Origin: Nemertoderma westbladi
Taxonomy: Eukaryota; Animalia; Xenacoelomorpha
Assembly: GCA_032718475.1 (NCBI GenBank)
Contig: JAUCBJ010006436.1
Span: 1 to 62,852 of the forward strand
Direction of reading: 5' to 3'
Length of the DNA stretch: 62,852 bases
The position numbers and the translations under genes are program-made. Positions 18,901 through 50,406 of the stretch are shown here, in pieces (positions within the stretch are counted from its first letter, which is position 1; each line of letters opens with the position of its first letter). The notes under the pieces were generated by a model, which did no database searches, was not told where the DNA came from, and saw only the letters and a program-made list of their open reading frames with translations.

Positions 18901-21068
18901 AAGACAAACTCGAATGTGAACTTGATGTTAACACGTCGAAATCGAATGTGAACTTGTTTGTTAACACGTCGAAATCGAATGTGAACTTGTTTGTTAACAC
19001 GTTGAACTGGAATGTGAACTTGTTTGTTAACAAGTCGAGCTCGAATGTGGACACGTCGAACTCGAATGTGAACTTGTTTGTTAACATGCCGAACTCGAAT
19101 GTGGACACGTCAAACGTGAATTTAAACGTGTTTGTTAACAATTCGACCTCGACTGTGAACTTGTTTGTTAACACATCGAACTCGAATGTGGACACGGCGA
19201 ACACGAATGTGAACTCGTCTGTTAACACGTCGAACTCGAATGTGAACTCGTCTGTTAACACGTCGAACTCAAATGTGGATACGTCGAACTCGAATGTGAA
19301 CTTGTTTGTTAACAAGTCGAACTCGAATGTGGACACGTCGAACTCAAATGTGAACTCGAATGTGAACTTGTTTGTTAACACGTCGAACTCGAATGCGAAC
19401 GTGTTTGTTAACAAGACAAACTCGAATGTGAACTTGATGTTAACACGTTGAACTGGAATGTGAACTTGTTTGTTAACACGTCGAACTCGAATGTGAACGT
19501 GTTTGTAAATAAGTCGAATTCGAATGTGAACTTGTTTGATAACAAGTCAAACTCGAATGTGGACACGTCGAACTCCAATGTTAACTTGGTTGTTAACACA
19601 TCGAACTCGAATGTGGACACGTCAAACGTGAATTTAAACGTGTTTGTTAACAATTCGAAGTCGACTGTGAACTTGTTTGTTGACACATCGAACTCGAATG
19701 TGGACACGGCGAACACAAATGTGAACTCGTCTGTTAACACGTCGAACTCGAATGTGAACTCGTCTGTTAACACGTCGAACTCAAATGTGGATACGTCGAA
19801 CTCGAATGTGAACTTGTTTGTTAACAAGTCAAACTCGAATGTGGACACGTCGAACTCGAATGTAAACTTGTTTTTAACACGTCGAACTCGAATGTGGACA
19901 CCTCGAACGCCAATGTGAACTTGGTTGTTAACACATCGAACTCAAATGTAAACGTGTTTGTTAACAATTCAAACTCGAATGTGAACTTGTTTGTTAACAA
20001 GTCGAACTCGAATATGGACACGTTGAATACGAATGTGATATAAAATGTGAACTCGATTGTGAACGTGAATGTGGACATGTCGAACTAGAATGTGAACAAG
20101 TCGAACTCGAATGTGGACACGTCGACCTCGAATGTAAATGTGTTTGTTAGCAAGTCGAACTCGAATGTGAACTTGCTTGCTAACATGTCAAACTCGAATG
20201 TGCTCACGTTGAATCGAATGTGAACTCGAATGTAATCTTGAATGTGAACTATATTATGAACTCGAATGTGGACACGTCGAACTCGAATGTGAACTTGTTT
20301 CGTAACAAGTCGAACTCGAATGAGGGCACGCCGAACACGTGGAAACATATAACTCGTTTGTGAACACGTCGAACTACAGTAGAATGTATACAATTAGAAC
20401 TCGTCTGTAGATAACAATGTATTATATCTATCAAATAACTTGAAATAAAATTAGTCAATTTGAAAAAAACGTTTTAAAACAAACGTTTTAAAACGTTTTG
20501 TAACCTACAGTAACAATAGCTAAAGGCCATGATACACCACAGGAGCGGCGAGCGGCAGCGGCGGGCGGCCGCGGCGAGCGGCTACTTTTAGTATGATACA
20601 CTATAGGAGCGGCGAGCGGCAGCAGCCATTTGTGGTCTATCATCACCCATAGAAAATAATGTGTTCTATTTTTAAAAAGTGGCCGCTTGCCGCTGCCGCT
20701 GCCGCTCGCCGCTCCTGTGGTGTATCATGGCCTAAACATGTCATACAATATTTTAAATAAGTATAAATAACTAGCTCCTGTATAGCACCAAAAGCTCGTT
20801 TATGGGTACACATACTGTACTATATAGTAGCGCCTGTCTGTACTCTATGTGGGAATCGAGCGCGAAAGTGCGATAATTATTCTACTTACTTTTCTATTTG
20901 TCGGCAACAATACTCAAGAGCTCTATTGTCATAAACCAAGCAATCTTCGTGGTCGTAGCAGGGCCCCCCAAGGTCAAGAACGTAGGCAGAAACTGCAGTA
21001 ACCTCAACCAATCCATGTATCACTGATAACACGATCGAATTGAGCAGTATACCAACGACACTCAACAT
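15979..21068 (-). CDS. Shisa-like / STMC6 single-pass membrane protein, join(21068..20890, 16180..15979), ~126 aa (may continue to a further exon)
   Basis: Signal-peptide-like MLSVVGILLNSIVLSVIHG. Donor AA|GTAAGT at 20889 and acceptor GAAG|G at 16181 join in phase 2 to give C-x5-C-x10-CC-x5-CC, then TM LYIYMSLLLPCLLFGAVCAFLA and juxtamembrane CASC. Confidence 0.7.
16232..20375. repeat. ~4.1-kb satellite on a 21-bp unit GAACACGTCGAACTCGAATGT (33-bp variant in the right half; ~500-bp higher-order duplications)
   Basis: Direct periodicity; duplicated blocks at offsets of 494 and 512 bp; lies inside the intron of the Shisa-like gene. Confidence 0.95.
20525..20732. mobile_element. MITE with long GC-rich TIRs
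   Basis: GGCCATGATACACCACAGGAGCGGCGAGCGGCAGCGGC and its exact reverse complement; TAAA on both flanks (Kolobok- or Harbinger-like). Confidence 0.8.
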
Positions 21069-22175: not shown

Positions 22176-24348
22176 ACAAAGAGTTAATAGGTAGGCTACT
22201 TACCAAAGAGTTCATAAGTAGGCTACTTACCAAAGAGTTCATGGGTAAGCTACTTACCAAAGAGTTCATGGGTAGGCTACTTACCAAAGAGTTCATAGGT
22301 AGTCTAGTTACCAAAGAGTTCATAGGTAGGCTACTTACCAAAGAGTTCATAGGTAGGCTACTTACCAAAGAGTTCATAGGTAGTCTAGTTACCAAAGAGT
22401 TCATGGGTAGGCTACTTACCAAAGAGTTCATAGGTAGTCTAGTTACCAAAGAGTTCATAGGTAGGCTACTTACCAAAGAGTTCATAGGTAGTCTAGTTAC
22501 CAAAGAGTTCATAGGTAGGCTACTTACCAAAGAGTTCATAGGTAGTCTAGTTACCAAAGAGTTCATAGGTAGGCTACTTACCAAAGAGTTCATAGGTAGT
22601 CTAGTTACCAAAGAGTTCATAGGTAGGCTACTTACCAAAGAGTTCATAGGTAGGCTACTTACCAAAGAGTTCATAGGTAGTCTAGTTACCAAAGAGTTCA
22701 TAGGTAGGCTACTTACCAAAGAGTTCATAGGTAGTCTAGTTACCAAAGAGTTCATAGGTAGGCTACTTACCAAAGAGTTCATAGGTAGGCTACTTACCAA
22801 AGAGTTCATAGGTAGTCTAGTTACCAAAGAGTTCATAGGTAGGCTACTTACCAAAGAGTTAATGGGTAGGCTACTTACCAAAGAGTTCATAGGTAGTCTA
22901 GTTACCAAAGAGTTCATAGGTAGGCTACTTACCAAAGAGTTCATAGGTAGTCTAGTTACCAAAGAGTTCATAGGTAGGCTACTTACCAAAGAGTTCATGG
23001 GTAGGCTACTTACCAAAGAGTTAATGGGTAGGCTACTTACCAAAGAGTTCATAGGTAGTCTAGTTACCAAAGAGTTCATAGGTAGGCTACTTACCAAAGA
23101 GTTCATAGGTAGTCTAGTTACCAAAGAGTTCATGGGTAAGCTACTTACCAAAGAGTTCATGCGGGTAAGCTACTTACCAAAGAGTTTATGGGTAGGCTAC
23201 TTACCAAAGAGTTCATGGGTAGGCTACTTACCAAAGAGTTAATGGGTAGGCTACTTACCAAAGAGTTAATGGGTAGGCTACTTACCAAAGAGTTCATGGG
23301 TAGGCTACTTACCAAAGAGTTAATGGGTAGGCTACTTACCAAAGAGTTAATGGGTAGGCTACTTACCAAAGAGTTCATAGGTAGGCTACTTACCATAAGA
23401 GTTCATGGGTAGGCTACTTTCCAAAGAGTTCATGGGTAGGCTACTTACCAAAGAGTTAATGGGTAGGCTACTTACCAAAGAGTTAATGGGTAGGCTACTT
23501 ACCAAAGAGTTCATAGGTAGGCTACTTACCAAAGAGTTAATGGGTAGGCTACTTACCAAAGAGTTAATGGGTAGGCTACTTACCAAAGAGTTAATGGGTA
23601 GGCTACTTACCAAAGAGTTAATAGGTAGGCTACTTACCATAAGAGTTCATAGGTAGTCTAGTTACCAAAGAGTTCATAGGTAGGCTACTTACCAAAGAGT
23701 TAATAGGTAGGCTACTTACCATAAGAGTTCATAGGTAGTCTAGTTACCAAAGAGTTCATAGGTAGGCTACTTACCAAAGAGTTAATGGGTAGGCTACTTA
23801 CCAAAGAGTTAATGGGTAGGCTACTTACCAAAGAGTTCATGGGTAGGCTACTTACCAAAGAGTTCATGGGTAAGCTACTTACCAAAGAGTTCATGGGTAG
23901 GCTACTTTCCAAAGAGTTCATGGGTAGGCTACTTACCAAAGAGTTAATGGGTAGGCTACTTACCAAAGAGTTAATGGGTAGGCTACTTACCAAAGAGTTA
24001 ATGGGTAGGCTACTTACCAAAGAGTTCATGGGTAGGCTACTTACCAAAGAGTTAATGGGTAGGCTACTTACCAAAGAGTTCATGGGTAGGCTACTTACCA
24101 AAGAGTTTATGGGTAGGCTACTTACCAAAGAGTTAATGGGTAGGCTACTTACCAAAGAGTTAATGGGTAGGCTACTTACCAAAGAGTTCATGGGTAGGCT
24201 ACTTACCAAAGAGTTTATGGGTAGGCTACTTAGCAAAGAGTTCATGGGTAGGCAGGCTACTTACCAAAGAGTTCATGGGTAGGCTACTTACCAAAGAGTT
24301 CATGGGTAGGCTACTTACCAAAGAGTTCATGGGTAGGCTACTTACCAA
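22176..24348. repeat. 27-bp satellite ACCAAAGAGTTCATRGGTAGGCTACTT, ~80 copies
   Basis: Clear 27-bp periodicity. The left half alternates two variants (GGCTACTT / GTCTAGTT). The main unit carries G|GTAAGT on the minus strand. Confidence 0.97.
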
Positions 24349-27300
24349 GACATCATAAACTACAGTATTTACCTGCCATCCAATCGTCAAAGGGAACTGC
24401 TACTAATTATGTTCATTATTTCGTCTGTCGCATCGGCTCTCCATCCATGGAAGACCCGCTGGTATCAATCTGTACCAAACCCGTAGGCCTACCACGAACA
24501 AAGTGCGTCTCATCGTATTGATAATGACGTTCCCACCAATTTCCAAGGACTTCCAATCATGCTCACTTATTCCTGCTTATTCAACAACTTTCACATACAA
24601 CAACCTCAACATGCATCGTACTGTGTACTGTATTACAAGTTGTAAATAAATACTGCTCAAAATAATTATATATTAATTACATATTATGTTCATTTGTAAT
24701 TCTCTAACATAACAAACCCGAAATTGCTCAAAGGTCCGCATCTACTTACGCATGAACTGTCCCCTTGAATGGCTTTTACTACCAATCTTACTAATCAAAA
24801 AAATCTACGGGAATGTGAAGATTGAACTCAGTACCTATAATGATTCCAAGTCCCCCGCTGTACCTCTAAAACCAAAACCAAAGTGGAAATTAACAATATC
24901 AAGAACAACAAGTCAACAACAACAACGGAGTAAATACTAGAGGTCTCGCTACACGGACCTATAAAAAGTACCGGTATTTATTTCTGAAATTCGGAGTCCT
25001 AGGGCAAATTTCCCCGATAATTACCAAAGCGCCATTTTTTCTTTTCCTAAAAAAATTTCCCCTCCAAAATAAAAATTTGGTATTTAGCAAAAAAATATAG
25101 GTTGAAAACAAATTTCTTACTCGCATTTGGAGTTGGTTTCCAAGTTAATTAAACGCGAGACTGTAATAAAATTACTATATTGTATTATAGGTATTACCAA
25201 ATATATACGATGTGTAACATTAGCATTTAAGAGTTAGGCCCATTACCAGAACACCCGGTAGGTACCGGTACAATTATCAATAACCGGCCAACAATTACTT
25301 TCATTTTCCAGTTAGCAGCACAAATGCTTACCAGACATCCGGAGCATCGGTAGGGCTACATACTTAATCTAATCATAGGCCTGTAGGCCTAATCTACAGT
25401 CAGACAGTGCAGGTATGCCAAAACAGTATGTTAATGATACAGTGATCTGGTGATAGGCGCCCTAAACACAGAAACAGGAAGTATCTGCTGATCGGAACCA
25501 GTTCGACGAGAAAGAACAAAGTTTACGTACGCATCTGTTTCCTGTTGCCTGATGCTAACAATCAATTACACTACACTGTATAAAGTAGCCCTACTGTATC
25601 TGCCTTCAGGCCTATGTCTCAGTATGTACATACGTACTGTAATGCCCTTTCTGTAGAGTCTTTTAAGCACCAGGTTAAACAACACTTTTTGAGTCAAGTA
25701 CAACAGTAGGCCTAGTGCAGTATGAACATTCAATCTGGCAATTGTAAATATGATTCAGTTATTCGGCAGTTTTTTCAGTCAGTCAGTCAGTCAGTGGTCC
25801 ACACAGAGACAATGTATTGACTGACATTTCAATAATTTATTTTATTTTTTAGTTCAATTGTAATTTATTAACATATTTAGCGTTGTAAATAATATAGATA
25901 CTGTAGTCACCAGACGTTTTTTTTAGCCAAATTGTAATGTTTTCTTATTAAACATCTGTTTTGGATTCGGTATGGGGTTTTAAGATACTGTAGATTAAAT
26001 ACATTACTATTTTCCAGTCTGACTGAATTATTGAGTGCTTATTTTATTAATTTATATTTATTTTAATTGAACTTCTTACTTCTAGGTTTTGATGTTCCAT
26101 ATTCGCCTGTTTCACTCTTTTTTCTATCGCGCAAATTTTTAAGTCTAAATAATTAATTTTAATTCATGTGTTGTCTATCGCGCACTTTTTAACACTAATT
26201 TTAATTCACTTTTTTATATCGTACACATTCTTAAATAATTAATTTTAATTTATAAATAAATTTATGTAATTCCTACTTACACCATATGTAATTCCTACTT
26301 ATACCCTCAAATTCATTAATAATTAATTCATATTAATCTATTTTAACAAATTAATTTGTTATTTTAGTAATTTAAACGCTGCGCTCACTTTAATGCTGTG
26401 CTTTTTAAAGGGACCTCCATGGAAACGAGGTTTATCCTCCTGGAGCTATCCCTAACATTGTATGTCTACAAGATAAATCTATATTTTATTTATGAACTAT
26501 GCACTATATTTTGTATTAATCTATTTTTTTTATTAAATTAAAATATTATAGTCGATTCCAACTTATTCCGGTTATTAGTGTATTTATGTTATGTTTTATA
26601 TGTCTTACATTTTATATGGATTATGTACAATGTTAATAAAAAACTTCAACTTCAAATTCTACAGCTCATTAGAACAGGCAGCTTCTACAGTAGTGTTGGT
26701 ATATTTGTTAACTCCAACTGTCCAAGAAGATTAACATTTTGTCAGATATCTTTGAAAATCCTCAGGAAATGTCCGATCGTACAATCAGACAGTATCAGAG
26801 TATGAGCATAATAAGCTCTACAGTAGGGATGGCATGCTTTTCCGCTTACTTTTTTTTTTATCAAATAATAGTCCTTTTTCAATCCACTACATTTACATTT
26901 GAAAATACATTACTCTACTGTATAAAATTTGAATAAATAGGCCTATGCAAAAGTTAATTATCATTAGGTACCAGTAATACTTAGTATACCTAACATTTAG
27001 GCTTAACATACAGTTGGCTTATATAATTAAGTCATACTTATTAAATTGTTACTTTTCTAACTTTACCTGTTTACTAACGTACCGTAACATAATAACAATA
27101 GTAGGCCTAGTTAAAATAAATTGACAAATTATCAGCTCCGGAAATATGGTGAAATGATTTGGTTGTTCTTTAAGAATTATAAATTACAACGAGAAATAAA
27201 CGCGAGCGAAGCGAGCGAAATTTTTTTGTGTATTTTCGTGATTTCAATTAATTTGTGGTGCGCATCAGAGCTGAGGCGCAACGCGCATCTGTCTCACCCG

Positions 27301-27937: not shown

Positions 27938-30900
27938 ATGCCAAAACGGAGTTACAGTTCCGAGTCCGACGAGGACGATGATTCCAAAGTCAAATCCCGT
28001 CGAAGCGAAATATCCGACGTGGAGAATTCCTTGGAGTCGCTGATTCTCCGAGTGGGAAAGAAAAGTAAATCGTCGTTAGAGAGCAACCTGGAAGGGTTGG
28101 CCTCGGTGCTGGAAACAGACCTGCACAGCTACAAAGGGAAGATACTAAAGATACTGTGTCATTGCGTGGTACGAGTCCCCAGCGAGATGACGGTGTACAC
28201 GACGCTAGTCGGTCTGCTCAACGCGTCCTCCTTCAACTTTGGCGCGGAATTCGTCGAGATGGCCAGTCGATTACTCAAGGATTGTCTCAACGCTGGCGAG
28301 TTCAGCGACGCACTCTCCTGCGTCCGCTTTCTCTCGGATCTAGTTAACTGCCACGTTGTAGAATCGGCGTCTCTTATCGCGATGTACCAATCGTTCGTAT
28401 CCGTTGCCACTTCGCAACCAGACTGCGGGCGCATACAATCCGACTGCTACGTCCTCGCGGTCCTATCCTCCTTGCCGTGGTCCGGCAAGACGTTAAGCGT
28501 GACGAAACCCGCGGAACTCAACAACCTCCTGACCAACATCGAGACCTACCTCGGTGGTCGGGACCGCTCGTTCCTCCCGATGGTACGCGTTTGGTCCACG
28601 GACACCCCGCACCCCCAGGAGGAGCACCTGGACTGTCTGTGGGCCCAGATTCGGAAACTCCAGTCCCTCCAATGGGAGGAGACCCTGATTGTACGACCCT
28701 ACCTCGCGTTCGTAGGCAACCTATCCGAGGCCTTGCAGCACGCTCTACCGCCCTTCTCCCCGACTGTCAACCCCGACCACGTCTACCCACTGCCCCGTTG
28801 CGTCTACCGAATGTTCGACTACGCCGATTGTCCATCAGATATGCCGCTACTTCCTGGCCACCACTCAATCGAGCGATGTCTCCTAGAGGAGCAGATCTCT
28901 CAGATCATCTCGGACCACCGCTTAGAACGACGACTCTGCGCCAAGGCCCTAGTGGCACATCCCCATTACGATAAACTCCCCATGAACTATATGATAGTGG
29001 AGGTTATCTTCGGGCAGCTGTTGAGTCGCGAGAGCCCGGTTTATCTCGAGGTTTTCTACGGTTCTCTTCTTATCGAACTCTGTAAGGAGCGACCCACTAC
29101 GATACCCGTAATTCTCGCACAGACCGTCCAACTCCTTTACGAACGTCTCGATACCATGCATATAACCTGCATTGATCGATTCGCTACCTGGTGAGTTATT
29201 ATTATTTGTTAAAGAATGATAACTGTTCAATTCACAATATTATTGTAATGGGTAGGCCTAATTATTTAAACTAGTATTTTATCAAATTGTATCAAATTTT
29301 AACCCCAATATTTATTTACTTGTAATATGGATCTATCGGGTCTGGAATAAACAAATATTTACGGTCGCTTGGGAATAATAATGTAAATGTAATTATTCGT
29401 GTCATTTAGTTTTTTGTAACACGTAATATGTGTGGCTCTATAAAATATTGGACAACGAAATACTTATTTGACCCTAATTATTATTTGCCTTTGCTTTATA
29501 ACTTTGTTCTTACCCCACTCCCGCACCCACACTGATCTACCATCTGCCTATCTAACAACTATATCTATAGCTATACATATCATATATCATCATATCATAC
29601 ATATCATATACATATAGCTATAACTATATATATACCCCACAGGTTCCTCAAATTAAACATATTTTTGAAAATAGTTCTAGTAAGAATAGTATGCCATACC
29701 ATACTCCTGGAATATTTTTGTTATTGTTATTTTTGTTGTTTTATGGTTGCATTTCCAGATCGGGTGGGGTGGGTAGCGTGAGTGTGGGAGGGGCTGTTGA
29801 ATCCAAGAAGAGTCTGTCTAACTCCAAACCATCTACAAAACTATCCCCACAGGTTCGCCTACCATTTACCTAATTATAGTCTATCCCCACAGGTTCGCCT
29901 ACTATTTACCTAATTATAGTCCATCCCCACAGGTTCGCCTACCATTTACCTAATTATAGTCTATCCCCACAGGTTCGCCTACCATTTACCTAATTATAGT
30001 CTATCCCCACAGGTTCGCCTACCATTTACCTAATTATAGTATATCCCCACAGGTTCGCCTACCATTTACCTAATTATAGTCTATCCCCACAGGTTCGCCT
30101 ACCATTTACCTAATTACAGTCTATCCCCACAGGTTCGCCTACCATTTACCTAATTATAGTCTATCCCCACAGGTTCGCCTACCATTTACCTAAATATAGT
30201 CTATCCCCACAGGTTCGCCTACCATTTACCTAACTAATTATAGTCTATCCCCACAGGTTCGCCTACCATTTACCTAATTATAGTCTATCCCCACAGGTTC
30301 GCCTACCATTTACCTAAATATAGTCCATTCCCACAGGTTCGCCTACCATTTACCTAATTATAGTCTATCCCCACAGGTTCGCCTACCATTTACCTAAATA
30401 TAGTCCATCCCCACAGGTTCGCCTACCATTTACCTAATTATAGTCTATCCCCACAGGTTCGCCTACCATTTACCTAATTATAGTCTATCCCCACAGGTTC
30501 GCCTACCATTTACCTAATTATAGTCTATCCCCACAGGTTCGCCTACCATTTACCTAAATATAGTCTATCCCCACAGGTTCGCCTACCATTTACCTAACTA
30601 ATTATAGTCTATCCCCACAGGTTCGCCTACCATTTACCTAATTATAATCTACCCCCACAGGTTCGCCTACCATTTACCTAATTATAGTCCATCCCCACAG
30701 GTTCGCCTACCATTTACCTAATTATAGTCCATCCCCACAGGTTCGCCTACCATTTACCTAATTATAGTCTATCCCCACAGGTTCGCCTACCATTTACCTA
30801 ATTATAGTCCATCCCCACAGGTTCGCCTACCATTTACCTAATTATAGTCTATCCCCACAGGTTCGCCTACTATTTACCTAATTATAGTCCATCCCCACAG

Positions 30901-33783
30901 GTTCGCCTACCATTTACCTAATTATAGTCCATCCCCACAGGTTCGCCTACCATTTACCTAATTATAGTCCATCCCCACAGGTTCGCCTACCATTTACCTA
31001 ATTATAGTCTATCCCCACAGGTTCGCCTACCATTTACCTAATTATAGTCCATCCCCACAGGTTCGCCTACCATTTACCTAATTATAGTCTATCCCCACAG
31101 GTTCGCCTACTATTTACCTAATTATAGTCCATCCCCACAGGTTCGCCTACCATTTACCTAATTATAGTCCATCCCCACAGGTTCGCCTACCATTTACCTA
31201 ATTATAGTCCATCCCCACAGGTTCGCCTACCATTTACCTAATTATAGTCCATCCCCACAGGTTCGCCTACCATTTACCTAATTATAGTCCATCCCCACAG
31301 GTTCGCCTACCATTTACCTAATTATAGTCTATCCCCACAGGTTCGCCTACCATTTACCTAATTATAGTCTATCCCCACAGGTTCGCCTACCATTTACCTA
31401 ATTATAGTCTATCCCCACAGGTTCGCCTACCATTTACCTAATTATAGTCTATCCCCACAGGTTCGCCTACCATTTACCTAATTATAGTCTATCCCCACAG
31501 GTTCGCCTACCATTTACCTAATTATAGTCTATCCCCACAGGTTCGCCTACCATTTACCTAATTATAGTCTATCCCCACAGGTTCGCCTACTATTTACCTA
31601 ATTATAGTCTATCCCCACAGGTTCGCCTACCATTTACCTAATTATAATCTACCCCCACAGGTTCGCCTACCATTTACCTAATTATAGTCCATCCCCACAG
31701 GTTCGCCTACCATTTACCTAATTATAGTCTATCTCCACAGGTTCGCCTACCATTTACCTAAATATAGTCCATCCCCACAGGTTCGCCTACCATTTACCTA
31801 ATTATAGTCTATCCCCACAGGTTCGCCTACCATTTACCTAATTATAGTCTATCCCCACAGGTTCGCCTACTATTTACCTAATTATAGTCCATCCCCACAG
31901 GTTCGCCTACCATTTACCTAATTATAGTCTATCCCCACAGGTTCGCCTACCATTTACCTAATTATAGTCTATCCCCACAGGTTCGCCTACCATTTACCTA
32001 ACTAATTATAGTCTATCCCCACAGGTTCGCCTACCATTTACCTAATTATAGTCTATCCCCACAGGTTCGCCTACTATTTACCTAATTATAGTCCATCCCC
32101 ACAGGTTCGCCTACCATTTACCTAATTATAGTCTATCCCCACAGGTTCGCCTACCATTTACCTAACTAATTATAGTCTATCCCCACAGGTTCGCCTACCA
32201 TTTACCTAATTATAGTCTATCCCCACAGGTTCGCCTACCATTTACCTAATTATAGTCTATCCCCACAGGTTCGCCTACCATTTACCTAATTATAGTCTAT
32301 CCCCACAGGTTCGCCTACCATTTACCTAATTATAGTCTATCCCCACAGGTTCGCCTACCATTTACCTAATTATAGTCTATCCCAACAGGTTCGCCTACCA
32401 TTTACCTAATTATAGTCCATCCCCACAGGTTCGCCTACCATTTACCTAATTATAGTCTATCCCCACAGGTTCGCCTACCATTTACCTAACTAATTATAGT
32501 CTATCCCCACAGGTTCGCCTACCATTTACCTAATTATAGTATATCCCCACAGGTTCGCCTACCATTTACCTAATTATAGTCTATCCCCACAGGTTCGCCT
32601 ACTATTTACCTAATTATAGTCTATCCCCGCAGGTTCGCCTACCATTTGCCTAATTATAGTCTATCCCCACAGGTTCGCCTATCATCTGTCTAACTTCCAG
32701 TACCGCTGGGCCTGGGACGATTGGCTGGACTGCATGCAACCCAATCGAGACAACAATTCCCCCAAGCTCTGGTTCGTCCGCGAGGTACTCGCCAAGTGTC
32801 TTCGACTCTCCTACTACCAGCGCGTCTGCGAGTTTCTACCGGAGACCTATCTGATGCTGGTACCCCCGGAACCGATGCCGGACTACCGGTACAAGTCTGA
32901 GAACCGACAGGTGGAGGGAGGGGAGGATGACATTGTGGGGATCGCTGAATCCTTGATAATGACTATAAAAGCAAAGGGTAACATACAGGAGGTTGTCGAG
33001 GTCCTCAAACGTTGTCCCAAACCGGTTGACGAATTTGATGAGGGTGAAAACTTAGTTAACTCCATCGCTATCGACGTCTTCACTCAGACGTTGTTCTTCC
33101 TCGGCGCTAAGAGCATCAGCCATTCGTTCAGCGCACTCGCTAAGTTCCACACCGTGTTCCGAGCTCTAGCGGAGACAGAGGAGTCCCAGATCCTGATGTT
33201 GAAGTCAATATACGACTTGTGGAAGAACCACCATATGATGTTGATTCTTCTGGTCGATAAACTCGTTAAGAGTCAGATCGTCACGTGTCGTTCGGTGGCT
33301 AATTGGTTGTTTTCCAACGACATGTCCGGAGACTTTACGAGGATGTACGTCTGGGAGATAATGAACTCGACGCTCAAGAAGATGAATAAACACGTGTTGC
33401 GTTTACAGACGGAGTTGGACGCCGTTGAAGAGAAGCTCGGTAAGACAGCCATGGTGGACGCACCTTCCGACATCCAGGCCGAGGCTGAAGCTTTGCAGGA
33501 GCGATTGGAACAGGCTCAAGCCGAACAGAAGAATCTATTCCTTATTGTGTTCCAACGTTTCATTATGGTCTTGGGTTCCCAGTCCATGTCCAAGGAGGAT
33601 GACCCCGATGGTAACACAGAGTCCTGGTTCAGAGTTGTTACTGAACGTCTCCAGGAGTTGTTCCTCGTCTACAACCAACAGATAGTGAGGTACACCTCCA
33701 CTCTGGAGAATCTCCTCTTTACTTCCGATATAGACTCACATATTCTAACTGTTTTCTACCAATATAAAGCCCTTCGCTCGTAA
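27938..33783 (+). CDS. NCBP1: Nuclear cap-binding protein subunit 1 (CBP80), join(27938..29190, 32673..33783), ~787 aa
   Basis: LESLILRVG..SSLESNLEGLA, PHPQEEHLDCLWAQI and YRMFDY motifs. Donor TG|GTGAGT at 29191 and acceptor CCCCACAG|G at 32672 rebuild [22 protein letters not shown]; C-terminus LLFTSDIDSHILTVFYQYKALRS. Confidence 0.96.
29841..32660 (+). repeat. 40-bp intronic satellite derived from the NCBP1 3' splice site plus exon-2 start, ~70 copies
   Basis: Unit CTATCCCCACAG-GTTCGCCTACCATTTACCTAATTATAGT; five 44-bp variants carry an extra ACTA; the array runs directly into the true exon CTATCCCCACAG-GTTCGCCTATCATCTGTCTAAC. Confidence 0.97.
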
Positions 33784-33875: not shown

Positions 33876-35423
33876 TAGGGTTGGCGCTGGAAACATTGGA
33901 TAAAATGGGTGTAAACGTTAAGCAGACAGTGGTGCATACACCTGATGCAGACGGTGGTGCAGAGCAGACACTGGTGCAGACAATGGTGCAGACAATGGTG
34001 CTGACAGTAGTGCAGACAGTGGTGCAGACAATGGTACAGACACTGTGCAGACACAGGTGCAGACACTGGTGCAGACAGTAGTGCAGACAGTGGTGCAGAC
34101 AGTGGTGCAGACAGTGGTGCAGACACTGGTGCAGACAGTGGTGAAGACACTGGTGCAGATAGTGGTGCAGACAGTGGTGCTGACACTGGTGCAGACAGTG
34201 GTGCAGACACTGGTGCAGACAGTGGTGCAGACACTGGTGCAGACAGTGGTGCAGACACTGGTGCAGACACCTGGTGAAAATACTGAAATACCAGAGTACC
34301 ACAAAACACAATACCACCAGGCACTATTTATTATATTATATTTTATCATAGACTTTATTTTCTGCAAATATGCGAGTAACTACTGAAAGGTTCTACATGA
34401 AGTAGGGAGGACGTATGTAGTACAATACGGGGTGCGTGGGGGTGAATGTGCCATGATTACAAATAATTATAAGTGGTGTGTACGGTACGAAAGTAATTAA
34501 TCGGTATTCCCGTTTTCGGTTTTCATATAAACAATAATGTCTCCAAGGAATGAGGCTTAAGCGACAGCGTTTGATTGTTTATACATGACCTACTTTATAC
34601 AGAGTATGTTTAATTTGTTTACCTTTACTGGATCCACTGCTTATTATAATAAAACGAGCTAATTAAGTTATTATCCCATGCTGAGGATATACATTCACTG
34701 ACTACAGTAAGGTCTCAGGAATTCTTAGCCCGCGAGTATTCTTAGCCCGCGAGTATTCTTATCCCGTGGGTATTCGTAGCCCGCAAAACAATAACGTTTA
34801 TTGTTTTGGTTCCCCCAATACTCCTCTAAAACCTGCCTCTTTACTAACCTGCTCCTTTACTAACCTGCTCCTTCACTGTCTGCACCACTGTCTGCACCAG
34901 TGTCTGCACCAGTGTCTGCACCACTGTCTGCACCACTGTCTGCACCACTGTCTGCACCACTGTCTGCACCAGGTGTCTGCACCACTGCGTGCACCAGGTG
35001 TCTGCACCACTGTCTGCACCAGTGTCTGCATCAGTGTCTGCACCACTATCTGCACCAGGTGTCTGCACCACTGTCTGCACCAGGTGTATGCACCACTGTA
35101 TGCACCACTGTATGCACCACTGTCTGCACCAGTGTCTGCACCACTGTCTGCACCAGTGGCTGCACCACTGTATGCACCACTGTCTGCACCACTGTCTGCA
35201 CCACTGTCTGCACCAGGTGTCTGCACCACTGTCTGCACCAGGTGTATGCACCACTGTATGCACCACTGTCTGCACCACTGTCTGCACCAGGTGTCTGCAC
35301 CAGTATCTGCTTAACGTTTACACCCGGATAAAATGTAGCGAAAGCGTATGTTTGTGTTTGTCTGTTAAAATGCGAAAACAAAATATAATAGTATATTAAA
35401 TATTTTTCCACGCACCAACCCTG
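33876..35423. mobile_element. Foldback element with inverted arrays of the 12-bp repeat GGTGCAGACAGT
   Basis: Ends TAGGGTTGG / CCAACCCTG; GGGTGTAAACGTTAAGCAGA inverted as TCTGCTTAACGTTTACACCC; arrays at 33923-34275 and 34874-35310 in opposite orientation; no clear TSD. Confidence 0.75.
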
Positions 35424-36952: not shown

Positions 36953-37903
36953 ATGAGTGATTTTCTAAATGACGACCTGCTACGTATTGTCCACGCTCAA
37001 CCCTGCATCAGTACGGCTACGTCAAGCACCTTGACAACCAGCGTGGTAAACAGAAACGACGCGACACCGATTAGCCTTAAATCCAACGTGACTTATATTG
37101 TTGGCGGAATCGCTATCAACGGTAACGATGAAGTTCTAATGATACAGGAAGCCAAGCGATCGTGTCGTGGTCGATGGTACCTACCCGCAGGTAGAATGGA
37201 GCGCGGGGAGACGATTTTAGAAGGTTTAAAACGCGAGGTTTTGGAGGAATCGGGGTTCCTTTTTATACCGGAGTATTTACTCTGCGTAGAAGCACAGTCG
37301 CGATGGTTCCGGTTTACTTACGTAGGTACCGTTACCGGTACCATCAAGACACATGCAGATAGCGAGTCTTTGCAAGCAGATTGGTTTAGCGAGTCGCAGA
37401 TCCTTGAAGATCTCGCTGTTCGAAGTCCTGATATATTTCCACTAATTCGTCGAGCACTCGCCCGCAAACACTCTACCCCGACCCTTCGAGTTCTGCCTCA
37501 TCCTCAGTCGCACTCAGGACTTTTTTTAAGAATTATTTTAGTGATGAAAAGGTCTTGCGACCTATTCGTATTGACTTCTGAAACAGGGAGTTTACCAATA
37601 ATTCAACTTGTGTTCAATCAGAGTATTCAGGGATGTATATTAAACTCATTACAACTTCCCCCATCTACGTTTACCGATAATATGAAGGTTGTCCATATGG
37701 AACACAGTCCAGGCAATTCTGACCCCCCTACAGATGGTTTTCATATAACTTTACTGGTAGAGTTATCACCAGATAATATAAACTTTGGGAACATATTAAA
37801 TCTCACTGGAATTTCAGACATAGGAGTTAAATCTGGATTGGAAAACTTGTTATCTAACAAGAATTTGTTGCCAGAGTTCTTGTGTTTCATGGACTGGTTC
37901 TGA
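36953..37903 (+). CDS. NUDT18: Nudix hydrolase, NUDT18/MTH3-like (8-oxo-dGDP phosphatase family), single coding exon, ~316 aa
   Basis: VLMIQEAKRSCRGRWYLPAGRMERGETILEGLKREVLEESG (Nudix box with NUDT18-type upstream motif), WFRFTY and ADSESLQADW; first ATG at 36953. Confidence 0.88.
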   Translation: MSDFLNDDLLRIVHAQPCISTATSSTLTTSVVNRNDATPISLKSNVTYIVGGIAINGNDEVLMIQEAKRSCRGRWYLPAGRMERGETILEGLKREVLEESGFLFIPEYLLCVEAQSRWFRFTYVGTVTGTIKTHADSESLQADWFSESQILEDLAVRSPDIFPLIRRALARKHSTPTLRVLPHPQSHSGLFLRIILVMKRSCDLFVLTSETGSLPIIQLVFNQSIQGCILNSLQLPPSTFTDNMKVVHMEHSPGNSDPPTDGFHITLLVELSPDNINFGNILNLTGISDIGVKSGLENLLSNKNLLPEFLCFMDWF

Positions 37904-39026: not shown

Positions 39027-41120
39027 CTACTACTAGGATCGGCATGCTGGATTGCAGCTGCAATTTTAAGAATGCTGTGCCGGCTTGTCGACAAAATTGC
39101 GCCACCACAACTCCCTATCACCCATGACATTTGCTAGATCATTCGCATCTTCAAGGCCAGTGTTCTTTAAGATGCGTCTCAAGAAAGTCATGGGCTGTCC
39201 ACCATGCTTATTCACTTCATGAGGCTGCCAAAGTACAACATTATGCACTGGCTGGTCCTCACGGCGAAAGCAATGTCCTGCAAAGCGGAGGCGATTTTGT
39301 TCTAGTCTCAGGCTTGGGGGAACCAATGAGACACCTCCAATGTTATATAGTGTCTGGTTGGAGATGTGTGCATTGTACTTGACACAATGAACCCGGCGTA
39401 GCATTCTTGTGAAAGTGCCATCCAGAGATTTGCTGTCCTCAGTAGTTAGAGCCCAGCATGGACTCCCATAGAGGAGTACTGGAACTACTGCTGCTCTAAA
39501 TAATCGGACCCTAAGTTTCCGATTAATTCTCGGTGACTTCCAAATCCTGGAAAGCCTTTTCAAGGCTGCCCATGCCTTTCCCTTACGTATTCGAAGGTCC
39601 TACCTGACTTCCGGATCCATGATCCCAGGTAACAGAAGTCGTCCACATGCTCAAGCATACCATCCGTTGAGCTTATGCTCATCCGATCAGAGACTTGCTG
39701 AGGACTTTCAAAGTTAACTGTCAAAATGTTGGTCTTTCTGGAGTTAATAAAAAGACCAACACTAGAAGCAGCATGTTCTAATGAGCTGAGGAGCCGTTGG
39801 GCTCCCTCTAGTGATTCTGAGAGTACTCCTAAGTCATCAGCAAAGTCTAGATCAGTTAGGTACTTGGCAGGATTTCCTCGACTTCTGGAACCAGTAGGTG
39901 CAGTTATCATCACCCCATCATCATTATAATGATCTAAGGACATGCGTAGAACATAGTCAACCACAATTATGAACAAGACTGGTGCAAGTGTGTCTCCCTG
40001 GAGGACGCCCCATAACACTTCAAATGGTTCTGTGTCACCGTCAACAGTAGACACAAATGTTGTCGAACCATCGTATACTGATCTGATTGCTGCAATAATT
40101 TCATCAGGAATCCCATATAATGAAAGTATGCTGAACATCGTGAGCGAGAGACTGAATCAAAGGCCTTGAAGAAGTCAACAAAGATAACAGCCAGATGCCT
40201 GTCTTTCTTTTTTGATAACTCTTCAATTATCCTTCTAAGTGCCAAAATGGGCTTCATGGTCCCACGACCTTTACGGAACCCATTCTGATTTCCACGGAGC
40301 AGTCTCTCAATGGGATCCCAGATGCGATTTAATAGAATTATATTGTATAGCTTTGCAGCAATCGAGATCAATGAGATTCCCCGAAAAGAACCATAGAGTG
40401 TTAGGTTGCCCTTCTTGGGAACTGGCACCAACTTATTTGTTTTCATTTCTTGTGGGACTCTTGTTGTTCGGTACATGTATACTATGATGGGATAGATGAG
40501 CTTTAAACACTCAGGTATTTTAAAGACCTCAGGGGGAACACCATCTACTCCACTGGCACGATTGGTCTCAATGCTCTTTGCAGCAGCCTTCACTTCTGCA
40601 AATGAGATATCGCCAATGGGAATATCTGGGAGTACAGACTCAGACACTTTTACTTCTATAAAGTTATCAGGCAATACCCTGTCATTATTGAGGAGCTTTT
40701 CAAAGTGGGCCTTCCAACCATTGAGGCGATCAGCTGGTGATTCAGCCTTAACCTTGGTGGTTGGTTTGCTTTTCTGCCCAGTAAGCAAGTTGATCGATTT
40801 CCATGCCTGGGATGATTTCCTGCTGTCGTCAGCATCATTGATGGCATCAACCTGTTGGTTTATTAGCTCCTGTAGATTGACAGAGTACTGCCTGTTCAGG
40901 GACCTACTGTAGATGGAGCCTTAACTGCATTCTTGGCCGCCGTAGTCTGTTTCAGTCGGGACTCTTTCTGCGCCTTGTAGAGGTCATTTCGGCACTTCTG
41001 AATTTTGTTGTCAGTCCAGGGGGCCCTTTTCTTGTTTCGAGGTAATACAGGAACTGTTTCTGCAGCTGCTAACTTAACCGCTTCTTATCACGAAGTATTT
41101 CCTACGAAACGGACCAATTA
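39027..41120 (-). mobile_element. 5'-truncated RTE-clade LINE, RT broken by two frameshifts, (TAG)n tail, 22-bp TSD
   Basis: RT motifs QNGFRKGR, FVDFFKAFDSV, GVLQGDTLAP, DFADD, YLGS and RLRFAGHCFR in three overlapping ORFs. TSD CACATTACAGTATTCTAACCAA at 39005-39026 and 41121-41142. Confidence 0.92.
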
Positions 41121-42154: not shown

Positions 42155-42354
42155 TTAACGGTTTTACCGGTACTGATTGACTGAACAACCAGTACAGCAG
42201 TACTGGTGTAGTTGGTTGTAGCCAATAGCCATAGAATACAGGAATACTGGAATAGGGAATTACCTACAGTAATACTGTACCAACTCCTGACTGTACTCGA
42301 CCTACTGCAGTGGAAATTCGAACATTAAAATATAATAAGATATTAGCATAAGAA

Positions 42355-44046
42355 ATGGAAGTGTTAAGAAGTAACTTCAAAGACGTCCTTGAGAATATTG
42401 GGGCTATCATAGAAGAGGCAGATATCGTAGCCATTGATGGCGAGTTCACGGGCTTACGTGGTTCTATAGCAGGTAAAGATAACGCAATGGATTCCCCCTC
42501 GGATAGGTATCATAAATATTTAACACAATCTATGGACTTTATTCTCATTCAGTTCGGGTTAGTTGCCTTCACTTACGACCAAAAGAGTAAGGAATACATT
42601 TGCCACCCTTATAGCTTTTATACTTTTCCACACAAAGACGATAAGTTCAACCAGAAAAATAATTATACGTTCCTCTCTCAGAGTTCCTGCATTAATTTCC
42701 TCATTTCCAACGATTTCGATTTTAATAAACTGTTTAAGGAAGGAATTCCTTATATGAAGAACGATAGATTCCAAGTTCTCAGCGCGAAGGTGGATGAGAA
42801 ATACAAAGAAAAGGAATTATTGTTGGAGAATGACTCGAGTAAGGTCCATTCAGTCGGGGCAGTTCCGGAAGACCAAAAACAACTTGTGGACGAGAGTGTA
42901 AAACTAATCGAAGGATTATTAGATTCTAGTTCGTTGTCCACGGTCAATCTGCCTGTCTGTAACAGCTACCAACGACTCCTTATATACGAGGCAATAGATA
43001 AACAATTCGGATGCAAGAAGTTACACATGGAAACCGTAACTGCTGAGGGCAATATGAAACGAATTAAAGCCACGAAGTTGAGTAAGGAACATAAATTGAA
43101 TAAACTTAAAGAAAATAAAGAACTAGAGATGTATGAGGTGGAGGAAGCTATAGGATTTAGTAAAGTTATTCAGCTACTTTCTAAGAAAGCCAAACTAATT
43201 GTTGGACATAACATGTTCCTGGATTTACTACACACTGTTGATAAATTCATTGTTAAACTTCCTAGCGATTATGAAGAGTTTAAACTGCTACTCCACGAGG
43301 TATTCCCGCGAGTTGTCGACACAAAATTAATAGCGTTAACCGCTCCGTTTAAGGACATAATCTCCCATTCAGGACTCGAGAAGTTGACTAAAGAACTCGA
43401 TAAGAAACCATTCAAAAAACCAACGATTAAAATAGCGGAAAATTTCCCGGATTTGGAAGGGAAAGATAAATTCCACGACGCGGGTTACGACGCTTATATA
43501 ACCGGGAGCATTTTCCTTACTTTTGCCCATTACCTTGATTCCTTCCAGCAATCTCCCAACACTCACCCCACTAATTCCCCGCTTATAGCGCCATTCGTTA
43601 ATAAAATATTCATGATGAAAAGTCCCGATATTCCCTACATGAACCTGAACGATTCGGATCCGAGCCCGGATCGAACTCGGGTCTTCCACGCCACCTTTCC
43701 GTCCCAGTGGTCCACCAACGATCTCCGTGAGCTATTCAGTCCTTATGGTAACATATTTGTGCATTGGGTCGACGACTGTACCGCTTACGCTGTAGTACAG
43801 TCGTCGTCTGCGGCCCAACTTGTATCCGATCAGCTGTGCGCCGCTAGTGGCTCCTCTGGTGTCTACTCTGTGGTTCCCTACAGCGTTAAACACCCAGGAT
43901 ACCGGTCGAAGCCACAATCCGGTGGCGAAGACGCGATAAAGAGGCGCAAACTAAGCGGCGGTCGCGTCGAGACTGAGCCTAAATCTGAAGTAAAAGTGAA
44001 CTCTTACAAAGATACCAAACAATTCGATGAGCCTGCAGATTGGTGA
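42355..44046 (+). CDS. PARN: Poly(A)-specific ribonuclease, single coding exon, 563 aa
   Basis: DEDDh/CAF1 motifs AIDGEFTG, GHNMFLDL and HDAGYDAYITG; R3H-like insert CNSYQRLLIY; RRM (FPSQWSTNDLRELFSPYG..WVDD); KRRK NLS-like motif; C-terminal FDEPADW; AATAAA at 44129. Confidence 0.95.
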   Translation: MEVLRSNFKDVLENIGAIIEEADIVAIDGEFTGLRGSIAGKDNAMDSPSDRYHKYLTQSMDFILIQFGLVAFTYDQKSKEYICHPYSFYTFPHKDDKFNQKNNYTFLSQSSCINFLISNDFDFNKLFKEGIPYMKNDRFQVLSAKVDEKYKEKELLLENDSSKVHSVGAVPEDQKQLVDESVKLIEGLLDSSSLSTVNLPVCNSYQRLLIYEAIDKQFGCKKLHMETVTAEGNMKRIKATKLSKEHKLNKLKENKELEMYEVEEAIGFSKVIQLLSKKAKLIVGHNMFLDLLHTVDKFIVKLPSDYEEFKLLLHEVFPRVVDTKLIALTAPFKDIISHSGLEKLTKELDKKPFKKPTIKIAENFPDLEGKDKFHDAGYDAYITGSIFLTFAHYLDSFQQSPNTHPTNSPLIAPFVNKIFMMKSPDIPYMNLNDSDPSPDRTRVFHATFPSQWSTNDLRELFSPYGNIFVHWVDDCTAYAVVQSSSAAQLVSDQLCAASGSSGVYSVVPYSVKHPGYRSKPQSGGEDAIKRRKLSGGRVETEPKSEVKVNSYKDTKQFDEPADW

Positions 44047-49260: not shown

Positions 49261-50406
49261 ATGGGACAGGAGCATTCTAGTAACGGACGACCGCTCAATG
49301 TCCCTAATAGAGCCGGTGCAGTATCGCAATCGGTGCCGCAGAGACCAGTCGAGGTTGAGCGTCCGCCGCCGAGATTGCGTGAAGGGAGGGGGGGCCCATG
49401 TGAGGAGCGGCGTAGCAGCGCCACTGAACGGCCCAGCACCAGCGCGCAACCAACCGTGGTTAAATTCCACCCAAAACGGGGAAACAACGTAGTTCTAGAA
49501 CAGAACGGTATGGTGGCTCGTAGGTCCGATAGTTTCTGCGACGCTATAACCTTCGTTGATTACGCGCTCAAATTAAACGAAGTTCTGAGAATAAAGATAA
49601 TCTCTATGGAGTCGACGTGGAACGGGATCCTCCGTCTGGGTGTCACGCAGCACGGCCCGCTCTCTATCGAATCACTGCCACGGTACAGCTGCCCGAACCT
49701 GAGCGGGAAACCTGGATTCTGGATCAAGTCTTTGGATACGGAAGGGGCCGTGGAAGAAACTGTTGTTTCTTTCTTTGTGAGTCCGGCGGGCGATTTGAAT
49801 CTTAAGTGCGGCTCGGGGGACTACTTTGTGTTCCTTTCGGGAGTGGCGACCAGGAGCCGGGGGTTGTGGCCGGTTATAGACGTGTATGGGAACACCACGG
49901 GGGTTCAGTTACTAGGGGTTACGGGGCGGGATTCCCCTGCTGAGTTGGTCCCCGAGCCGCCGGTCCGACGACGTTCTCGATCCCCCGCAGTTCTGCGGTC
50001 CGCAGTGCCGCGTGCCCCCGCCCCCTCTGGGTCCGCAGTGCCGCGTGCCCCCGCCCCCTCTGGGTCAGCAGTGTCTCGTCCCCCCGCCCCCTCTGGGTCC
50101 GCAGTGCCTCCCAGTGTGCCCCCACGGGTCCCCAGTCCCCTCGAGCCCATCCGTGTTTCCCCCGCTTCCCGTCCCTCAAGGCCCCCTCCCCCTCGCTCCA
50201 ACCCCCAGAGCAGCCCCCCAACCGAGCCCCGCGCTGAAGATAACACCTGTTGCATTTGTTTCGATAACACTGTGGACAGTGTCCTGTACGGCTGCGGCCA
50301 CTTGTGTCTCTGCAACCCGTGCGCCTTGCAGATTCAACGTGGAAGGAAGAACTGCCCGATATGCCGAGCAGAAGTTAAAGACGTCATCAGGATCTACAGG
50401 CCCTAA
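49261..50406 (+). CDS. Neuralized-family E3 ubiquitin ligase (single NHR domain, Pro-rich linker, C-terminal C3HC4 RING), ~381 aa
   Basis: NHR: KFHPKRGNNVVL..ARRSDSFCDAITF..WNGILRLGVT..PRYSCPNL..LWPVIDVYGNTTGVQL. RING: CCICFDNTVDSVLYGCGHLCLCNPCA..CPICRAEVKDVIRIYR. Confidence 0.9.
   Translation: MGQEHSSNGRPLNVPNRAGAVSQSVPQRPVEVERPPPRLREGRGGPCEERRSSATERPSTSAQPTVVKFHPKRGNNVVLEQNGMVARRSDSFCDAITFVDYALKLNEVLRIKIISMESTWNGILRLGVTQHGPLSIESLPRYSCPNLSGKPGFWIKSLDTEGAVEETVVSFFVSPAGDLNLKCGSGDYFVFLSGVATRSRGLWPVIDVYGNTTGVQLLGVTGRDSPAELVPEPPVRRRSRSPAVLRSAVPRAPAPSGSAVPRAPAPSGSAVSRPPAPSGSAVPPSVPPRVPSPLEPIRVSPASRPSRPPPPRSNPQSSPPTEPRAEDNTCCICFDNTVDSVLYGCGHLCLCNPCALQIQRGRKNCPICRAEVKDVIRIYRP
49999..50108 (+). repeat. 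In-frame 33-bp coding tandem repeat (SAVPRAPAPSG, ~3.3 copies)
   Basis: TCCGCAGTGCCGCGTGCCCCCGCCCCCTCTGGG repeated within the linker. Confidence 0.85.

What the first reader, a model, noticed from the sequence alone, without database searches (positions are those of the whole stretch)
29841..32700. NCBP1 intron is filled with ~70 tandem copies of its own splice acceptor: decoy array or built-in recursive splicing ratchet
Seen: the 40-bp unit is the last 12 nt of the intron (CTATCCCCACAG) plus a diverged copy of the first ~28 nt of exon 2 (reads FAYHLPNYS versus true FAYHLSNFQ). Every copy I read keeps CAG and a branch-point-like CTAAT ~20 nt upstream, so ~70 near-identical acceptors precede the real one. 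The first (29852) has its own CTAAC at 29818. Splicing to any upstream copy reaches TAA within ~60 nt (..SPQVRLPFT*), so only the last acceptor yields CBP80. Each acceptor is AG|GT: joining exon 1 to a decoy recreates TG|GTTCGC, a weak donor whose re-splicing to a later copy gives exactly the correct junction. Known: CBP80 is a core cap-binding subunit that promotes cap-proximal intron splicing and pioneer-round NMD; recursive splicing uses AG|GT sites. Inference: the cell either skips 70 decoys or ratchets through them, and copy number could tune or autoregulate CBP80 output.
Basis: partly seen in the sequence, partly recalled or inferred. Interest (0 to 1): 0.9.

Follow-up and report, generated by a model that had tools for sequence, protein, structure and literature searches.

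The report
Splice-acceptor "mirage" repeat in NCBP1
The only coding intron of an animal's cap-binding-protein gene (NCBP1) holds 70 head-to-tail copies of its own splice-in signal, a large example of a repeat type already described in lancelets, and the cell likely splices straight to the last copy rather than stepping through them.

Summary
The 3,482-nt intron of a two-exon NCBP1 carries a 40-bp minisatellite (70.6 copies, 95% matches) made of the last 12 intron bases plus a diverged first 28 exon-2 bases. It gives 71 CAG|GTTCGC acceptors; only the last yields the 787-aa protein. This architecture is known: amphioxus 'mirage' minisatellites, and human F7/CBS/6-16 on the donor side, where the exon-adjacent site is normally used. 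The ratchet reading is weak. The regenerated donor pairs poorly with U1 (-2.6 vs -9.2 kcal/mol for the true donor) and is weaker than the next copy's CAG|GT, so re-splicing would more likely keep a frameshifting unit. The intron is short, and 0 of 12 intron-bearing animal NCBP1 loci show such copies. Decoy stops lie in the last exon, so exon-junction-dependent NMD would not apply. The window is rich in minisatellites, one of which looks like a donor-side counterpart. Best reading: a tolerated, turning-over minisatellite skipped in one step because only the last acceptor adjoins a full exon. No RNA or raw reads were examined, so site use and copy number are untested. Side result: the intron lies 12 nt downstream of the pan-animal NCBP1 intron position.

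The parts
27938..29190 (+). NCBP1 coding exon 1 (ATG to the TG of Trp418)
   Evidence: ORF; Pfam MIF4G and first half of MIF4G_like; best homologue 57%
29191..32672 (+). Single coding intron, 3,482 nt, GT...AG, phase 2 in Trp418; 12 nt downstream of the position seen in other animals
   Evidence: splicing inferred from the protein alignment, no RNA seen
29188..29198 (+). True donor CTG|GTGAGT
   Evidence: U1 pairing -9.2 kcal/mol, top 1.6% of 187 GT sites
29611..29646 (+). Older, decayed copy of the acceptor (CAG|GTTC at 29642)
   Evidence: local alignment to the unit, p=0.002 against 1000 shuffles, post hoc; equal to the maximum of 300 shuffles of the whole 5' intron part
29813..29826 (+). 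5'-edge relic with exon-type bases; supplies the CTAAC branch-point-like motif of the first acceptor
   Evidence: p=0.003, post hoc; borderline (95th percentile) in the wider search
29841..32685 (+). 40-bp minisatellite, 70.6 copies; 70 decoy acceptors, each with a branch-point-like A 19 nt upstream derived from exon Ser/Pro-Asn codons
32633..32672 (+). Last unit: supplies the predicted branch point and the working acceptor; the only unit with the exon-type G at position 16
32673..33783 (+). NCBP1 coding exon 2 (terminal), to the stop codon
   Evidence: ORF; Pfam MIF4G_like second half and MIF4G_like_2

Best explanation
A 40-base piece spanning the intron/exon-2 boundary of NCBP1 is repeated 70 times head to tail, and the spliceosome likely removes the whole intron in one step by choosing the last acceptor, the only one followed by a full exon. 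Shown: the unit's origin from the boundary, its copy number in this assembly, the single productive acceptor, and diverged edge copies around a homogeneous core. Inferred: (a) the array grew and was homogenised by slippage or unequal crossing-over, as other minisatellites in this window did; (b) gain or loss of whole units is tolerated because any integer number of units leaves a last acceptor with a branch-point-like motif, which the exon's own TCT AAC / CCT AAT codons happen to supply 19 nt upstream; (c) the last site wins through exon-side signals (enhancers and terminal-exon definition in the 1.1-kb exon; G content rises from 10% in the array to 26% after the first 28 exon bases), while each decoy is followed by only 28 nt of altered exon and then the next copy's branch region; (d) any leak to the nearest decoys gives truncated, non-functional products and is waste, not regulation.
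For: Architecture matches amphioxus mirages, where RT-PCR and Adh3 data suggest regular splicing is undisturbed and edge copies escape homogenisation (PMC3087553, passages). Human donor-side cases use the exon-adjacent site, and adding F7 repeats up to 8-12 did not change the site chosen (PMC1557585, abstract and passages). Duplicated beta-globin acceptors with 14, 55 or 205 nt of exon behind the proximal one spliced exclusively to the distal site in vitro (PMC5389562, section 15). Intron-side signals are the same for decoys and real site, so the choice must rest on exon-side context; composition step. Seven TRF arrays of 300 bp or more cover 17% of the window, and a second 80-copy array carries a donor motif, so expansion is not special to NCBP1. 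No junction copies upstream of the acceptor in 12 of 12 other intron-bearing loci. Recurrent variant units (T30C in 20 of the 65 40-nt units; a 4-base duplication in 5 of 70) and no length change in the C or T runs argue for real sequence.
Against: No RNA was examined, so use of the last acceptor is inferred from the ORF alone; no protein from this species was found among the best 120 listed of 467 and of 196 hits. Under intron definition the upstream of two competing acceptors is favoured (PMC9225289, passages), which would pick the first decoy (662-nt intron). In 6-16 and CBS the two nearest pseudo-sites are also used, and the duplicated-acceptor substrates spliced very inefficiently, so a cost or leak is plausible. 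The 12 variable unit positions avoid CAG|GT plus CTAA more than random placement would (p=0.025, post hoc; CAG|GT alone p=0.15; longest invariant run p=0.056), a weak hint that the signals are kept. The 12 comparison loci are distant animals with the intron at a different position, and 0.7-4 kb upstream was searched. Exon enhancers were not scored.
Confidence: 0.74

Rival explanations
1. Same origin, but the decoys measurably tax or leak splicing: they bind U2AF/SF1 and slow assembly at the real site, or the last few decoys are used at low rate, so copy number shifts CBP80 output (a quantitative effect, not necessarily adaptive).
For: Duplicated acceptors showed double U2AF occupancy, reduced U2 snRNP binding and very inefficient splicing (PMC5389562 section 15). 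6-16 and CBS use the two nearest pseudo-sites as well; a CBS repeat is linked to reduced activity (title in a reference list only). 70 decoys have the same intron-side signals as the real site.
Against: F7 repeat number did not change the site chosen (that test was of site choice, not amount). Mirages are reported not to disturb splicing. An essential gene with an intact 787-aa ORF has tolerated growth to 70 copies.
Confidence: 0.14
2. Stepwise removal. Either the first reader's forward ratchet (exon 1 to a decoy, then the regenerated donor to a later copy), or a nested variant in which an in-array CAG|GT acts first as donor and collapses the array in the pre-mRNA, leaving a shorter intron (662 nt if copy 1 is used) that is then spliced normally.
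For: All 71 acceptors are AG|GT, so either path can give the exact junction (follows from the sequence). The in-array donor scores -5.6 kcal/mol, top 7.5% of background GT sites, which favours the nested over the forward path. Weak hint of signal retention (p=0.025). The first acceptor has its own branch-like motif.
Against: Forward donor -2.6 kcal/mol, not above background, and weaker than the next copy's donor, which by the competition rule predicts inclusion of a frameshifting unit. GT after the acceptor is forced by the Trp-Phe codons (G|TTC), present in most homologues without any intron there. Intron short; no conservation. A search for 'recursive splicing' + 'tandem repeat' + 'acceptor' + 'ratchet' found 0 papers.
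Confidence: 0.08
3. The array, or most of its length, is an assembly or amplification artefact.
For: Raw reads were not examined; variant units are not significantly clustered (adjacent-pair p=0.26; longest repeated block p=0.056).
Against: The unit differs from the true exon at 7 of 25 bases, which an assembler cannot invent; there are 15 unit types with recurrent substitutions and no homopolymer length changes; decayed edge copies lie upstream.
Confidence: 0.04

Closest known systems
Amphioxus 'mirage' minisatellites (globins BflGb6 and BflGb9, Adh3); Ebner et al. 2010, PMC3087553 (passages read; supplements not opened). The primary Adh3 paper, PMC117041, was not held.
   Same: Head-to-tail copies of the 3' end of an intron plus the 5' part of the next exon; authentic site at the exon-side edge; many copies keep AG/GT; homogenised core with diverged edges; unit within the 10-160 bp range reported.
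   Different: 70 copies against 3-6 in BflGb6; a different animal lineage (long branch outside the protostome sample, placement unsure); the array fills 81% of the gene's only coding intron; length polymorphism and splicing not measured here.
Human boundary-spanning minisatellites: F7 IVS7 (37 bp x 5-9), 6-16 (25 pseudo-sites), CBS IVS13 (15-20), LMNB2, PDGF; Borensztajn et al. 2006, PMC1557585 (abstract and passages)
   Same: Many identical pseudo splice sites next to the authentic one, which adjoins the exon and is the one normally used.
   Different: Those reiterate the donor, where 5'-to-3' scanning explains the choice; here the acceptor is reiterated and the authentic site is transcribed last, so scanning order cannot explain it.
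Recursive splicing ratchet points of Drosophila and mammals; Joseph et al. 2021, PMC8605326 (abstract and passages)
   Same: Juxtaposed acceptor and GT (AG|GT); a zero-base step would restore the junction.
   Different: Ratchet points are conserved, lie in long introns, and need a donor stronger than that of the cryptic exon; here the donor is weak, weaker than the next copy's, unconserved, and the intron is 3.5 kb.
Near intron pairs / intron sliding and gain by tandem duplication; Lehmann et al. 2010, PMC2891723 (passages)
   Same: The intron lies 12 nt (four codons, same phase) from the position found in other animals, within the under-32-nt definition.
   Different: No intermediate species was available; no significant footprint of a duplication origin at the intron's ends (p=0.10-0.55); the junction is TG|GT, not an AG|GY proto-splice site.

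Membership tests
Mirage minisatellite | Tandem head-to-tail unit that spans an intron/exon boundary of the host gene | tested here: met
   12 intron + 28 exon-derived bases, 70.6 copies; 70 copies of the 21-nt junction at 4 or fewer mismatches
Mirage minisatellite | Extra copies lie in the intron and keep splice signals; authentic site adjoins the full exon | tested here: met
   71 of 71 CAG|GT; only the last gives the full ORF
Mirage minisatellite | Concerted evolution inside, diverged copies at the edges | tested here: met
   33 of 70 units identical; exon-type G only in the last unit; relics at 29611-29646 and 29813-29826
Mirage minisatellite | Length polymorphism between alleles or cells | not tested
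   No reads or second haplotype were seen; no whole genome is held
Mirage minisatellite | Regular splicing undisturbed | not tested
   No RNA seen; no own-species protein among listed hits
Recursive-splicing ratchet point | Acceptor directly followed by GT | tested here: met
   71 of 71, but GT is set by the Trp-Phe codons
Recursive-splicing ratchet point | Regenerated donor strong, and stronger than the competing downstream donor | tested here: not met
   -2.6 vs -5.6 (next copy) and -9.2 (true donor) kcal/mol with a recalled U1 5'-end motif; rule
Recursive-splicing ratchet point | Long intron | tested here: not met
   3,482 nt; the paper's example is about 50 kb
Recursive-splicing ratchet point | Conserved across species | tested here: inconclusive
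   0 of 12 intron-bearing loci have junction copies, but all are distant and have the intron 12 nt away; no close relative found
Recursive-splicing ratchet point | Intermediates or lariats at the site in nascent RNA | not tested
   No RNA seen
NCBP1/CBP80 | MIF4G, MIF4G_like and MIF4G_like_2 domains in a ~790-aa protein, orthologous to animal NCBP1 | tested here: met
Exon-junction-dependent NMD poison event | Premature stop more than about 50 nt upstream of a later exon junction (rule recalled) | tested here: not met
   Decoy stops lie downstream of the only coding junction; 3'UTR introns unknown
Near intron pair (sliding) | Novel position under 32 nt from an ancient one | tested here: met
   12 of 12 intron-bearing loci splice at the Arg phase-2 site 12 nt upstream, 0 of 69 motif-bearing loci at the Trp site; 9 vertebrate isoforms lack residues 413-433, placing an exon edge at 412
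Near intron pair (sliding) | Evidence of sliding rather than loss plus independent gain | tested here: inconclusive
   No end-similarity signature; the genes in the window have 0-1 coding introns, so loss and gain is equally open

The most novel reading that the evidence does not exclude
The 70 CAG|GT copies are used: in-array sites act first as donors and collapse the array inside the pre-mRNA (or compete for U2AF), so repeat number sets how fast the only intron of the cap-binding-complex gene is removed, making a heritable, mutable rheostat and possible feedback on CBP80; the same boundary duplications may also have moved this intron 12 nt from its pan-animal position.
Probability: 0.08. Interest if true: 0.75.

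Novelty: new member of a known kind. Interest (0 to 1): 0.22.

Why it matters
As a known repeat type it matters modestly. It extends acceptor-side mirages to another animal lineage and to 70 copies, and it is a clean natural substrate for an open question: how the spliceosome picks the last of many acceptors whose intron-side signals are identical, where the scanning rule that explains donor-side cases cannot apply. Repeat and exon differ from base 10 onward, so ordinary RNA-seq can score decoy use. If copy number did tune CBP80, it would be a repeat-length control on a core mRNA-processing factor, but nothing here shows that.

Tried and rejected
Forward ratchet: rejected as best reading on donor strength and competition. 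Exon-junction NMD of decoy products: rejected on position. The in-unit TAG (6 nt after the branch-like A) as acceptor: gives 428-aa products in 62 of 62 cases and is likely too close to the branch point (recalled rule). RNA structure hiding the decoys: three units fold weakly (-10.1 kcal/mol over 120 nt; no shuffle control), so not pursued. [quoted passage not shown] Variant clustering as proof of biological turnover: not significant (p=0.26, 0.056). Own-species protein or truncated 437-aa product in the protein database: none among the best 120 listed in either search. Close relatives in metagenome contigs: best 55-56% over exon 1 among 78 loci. Taxonomic placement: quick tree only, long branch (1.31), joined to deuterostomes at 86% SH-aLRT, with no named xenacoelomorph, echinoderm or tunicate among the 38 rows chosen from 240 proteins; a nemertodermatid genome paper (PMC10565955, passages) did not settle it. 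Earlier scan notes for this genome and sequence: none. The primary Adh3 mirage paper was not held. No whole genome is held, so genome-wide frequency of such arrays is unknown.
Full report
Observation. The window holds a two-exon NCBP1 on the + strand: 27938-29190 and 32673-33783. The Pfam MIF4G_like domain is split at the junction (profile 63-134 and 137-191). The spliced ORF is 787 aa, 392 residues identical to a mammalian NCBP1; the best database relatives are 57% identical over exon 1. The 3,482-nt intron contains a 40-bp array at 29841-32685 (70.6 copies, 95% matches). It gives 71 CAG|GTTCGC acceptors; the 70 upstream ones lead to a stop 58 nt (65) or 22 nt (5) after the junction.

Anatomy. 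The unit is the last 12 intron bases and 28 bases derived from the start of exon 2, identical to the exon for 9 bases and different at 7 of the first 25. Of 70 units, 33 are identical; 12 positions vary, and a 4-base duplication occurs in 5 units. The edges are diverged: the last unit alone has the exon-type G at position 16, a relic with exon-type bases lies at 29813-29826 (p=0.003) and an older acceptor copy at 29611-29646 (p=0.002; both post hoc). The branch-point-like motif 19 nt before each acceptor comes from the exon's Ser/Pro-Asn codons, so every unit brings its own branch motif to the next acceptor, and any whole number of units leaves a complete last acceptor. Recurrent substitutions without homopolymer changes, and divergence from the exon, argue against an assembly artefact, though variant clustering was not significant (p=0.26, 0.056) and no reads were seen.

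Context. Seven arrays of 300 bp or more cover 17% of the window. Genes here have 0-1 coding introns, so the near-intronless NCBP1 is not a lone retrocopy. A second array (22177-24348, 27 bp x 80) reads GTAAGT on the minus strand in 62 of 80 units and starts 27 nt below a CAG|GTAAAT site whose 27-mer resembles the first unit (3 of 2,881 random 27-mers score as high; post hoc). It may be the donor-side counterpart in an atlastin 5'UTR intron, but no exon is shown. A quick tree puts the protein on a long branch outside the protostome sample; placement is unsure.

Mechanism. Decoys and the real site share the same intron-side signals, so the choice must come from the exon side or from stepwise removal. 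For stepwise removal, the donor made by exon 1 plus a decoy pairs with the U1 5' end (motif recalled) at -2.6 kcal/mol, matched by 36% of 187 background GT sites; the true donor scores -9.2 and the atlastin donor -9.7; the in-array CAG|GT scores -5.6. In Drosophila the stronger of the ratchet and cryptic-exon donors is used, and ratchet points are conserved and sit in long introns (PMC8605326, abstract and passages). Applied here, re-splicing would more likely keep a 40-nt frameshifting unit. The GT is set by Trp-Phe codons seen in most homologues. If any stepwise path exists, a nested one using the in-array donor is the better candidate. For one-step distal choice, duplicated beta-globin acceptors with 14, 55 or 205 nt of exon behind the proximal copy spliced only to the distal site, though very inefficiently (PMC5389562, section 15), and G content steps from 10% in the array to 26% in exon 2 beyond the duplicated part. 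Against this, intron-defined splicing favours the upstream of two acceptors (PMC9225289, passages), and the variable positions avoid CAG|GT plus CTAA slightly more than chance (p=0.025 post hoc; 0.15 for CAG|GT alone). Decoy stops lie in the last exon, 1,090-3,870 nt before the normal stop, so exon-junction NMD, the route tied to CBP80, would not apply (recalled rule). I commit to one-step skipping of a tolerated minisatellite (0.74), then quantitative tax or leak (0.14), stepwise removal (0.08), artefact (0.04). None of this was checked on RNA.

Comparison. Minisatellite duplications of the 3' end of an intron plus the 5' part of the next exon are described in amphioxus as mirages; many copies keep AG/GT, edges escape homogenisation, length is unstable and regular splicing appears undisturbed (PMC3087553, passages). 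Human F7, 6-16, CBS, LMNB2 and PDGF have donor-side versions; the exon-adjacent site is used, with the two nearest pseudo-sites also used in 6-16 and CBS, and F7 repeat number did not alter the choice (PMC1557585, abstract and passages). A search for all of 'mirage', 'exon-intron', 'amphioxus', 'minisatellite' found only that globin paper, and one for 'recursive splicing', 'tandem repeat', 'acceptor', 'ratchet' found none, so a ratchet through a repeat is not in print as far as these searches reach. Earlier notes of this scan list 25 findings with these words in at least 7 genomes (8 shown); they are unchecked leads, seen after I had found the mirage paper, but they suggest the type is common. 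Supplements of the papers were not opened.

Intron position. Among 78 metagenome loci, 69 carry the HLSNF motif; none has an acceptor at the Trp phase-2 site. Twelve have the coding sequence broken just upstream, all 12 with an AG at the Arg phase-2 site 12 nt earlier; 54 continue in frame (many are probably transcripts) and 3 were too short. Nine vertebrate isoforms lack residues 413-433, in line with an exon edge at 412. None of the 12 has copies of its junction upstream. So the window's intron is at a derived position that fits the near-intron-pair definition (PMC2891723, passages). Mirages have been proposed to create new intron positions, but I found no duplication footprint at the intron's ends, and with about two dozen ancestral introns (recalled) a new one would fall this near one by chance roughly one time in five, so this is a lead only.

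Verdict. Real feature, new and large member of a known kind; regulatory reading unsupported but untested. Interest 0.22.

Noticed in passing
window 22177-24372, minus strand: 27-bp x 80 array; 62 of 80 units begin GTAAGT and the array starts 27 nt below a CAG|GTAAAT site with a diverged unit between. Possible donor-side mirage in a 5'UTR intron of atlastin (candidate acceptor near 11271); no exon or transcript shown.
   Followed up: partly
window 29190/32673: The intron is 12 nt downstream of the NCBP1 intron position found in 12 of 12 intron-bearing loci and in vertebrate isoform edges; sliding or loss plus gain not resolved.
   Followed up: partly
window 29643-29777: The old acceptor copy at 29642 has donor-like sites 126 and 135 nt downstream (GGG|GTGGGT, AGC|GTGAGT); either would make an in-frame, stop-free cassette adding 42 or 45 mostly hydrophobic residues. 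It is the one decoy with a strong downstream donor.
   Followed up: partly
window 29853-29877 vs 32673-32697: 5 of the 7 differences between unit and exon are silent in the exon frame (p about 0.025, post hoc), although the 5'-edge relic suggests the changes arose on the repeat side. Unexplained; may be chance or an old duplication.
   Followed up: partly
window 8654-11229, minus strand: Atlastin-like gene (Pfam GBP) with one coding intron of about 0.93 kb and no boundary repeats seen; head-to-head with NCBP1.
   Followed up: partly
window 36953-37903, 42352-44046, 49270-50406: NUDIX, PARN-like (CAF1 + RNA_bind) and neuralized/RING genes each in one long ORF: an intron-poor genome.
   Followed up: partly
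window 16231-20336: 4-kb complex satellite built from 12-, 21- and 33-bp units with long stop-free low-complexity frames.
   Followed up: no
window 33922-34269 and 34874-35310: Two 12-bp arrays in opposite orientation just downstream of the NCBP1 stop, likely an inverted-repeat element; the first AATAAA after the stop is at 34648, between them.
   Followed up: no
window 39066-40920 and 2885-3631, minus strand: Broken reverse-transcriptase-like (LINE-type, by eye) frames in two related copies; identity not tested.
   Followed up: no
window 845-1165, 2355-2675, 61457-61777: Three near-identical copies of a dispersed repeat.
   Followed up: no
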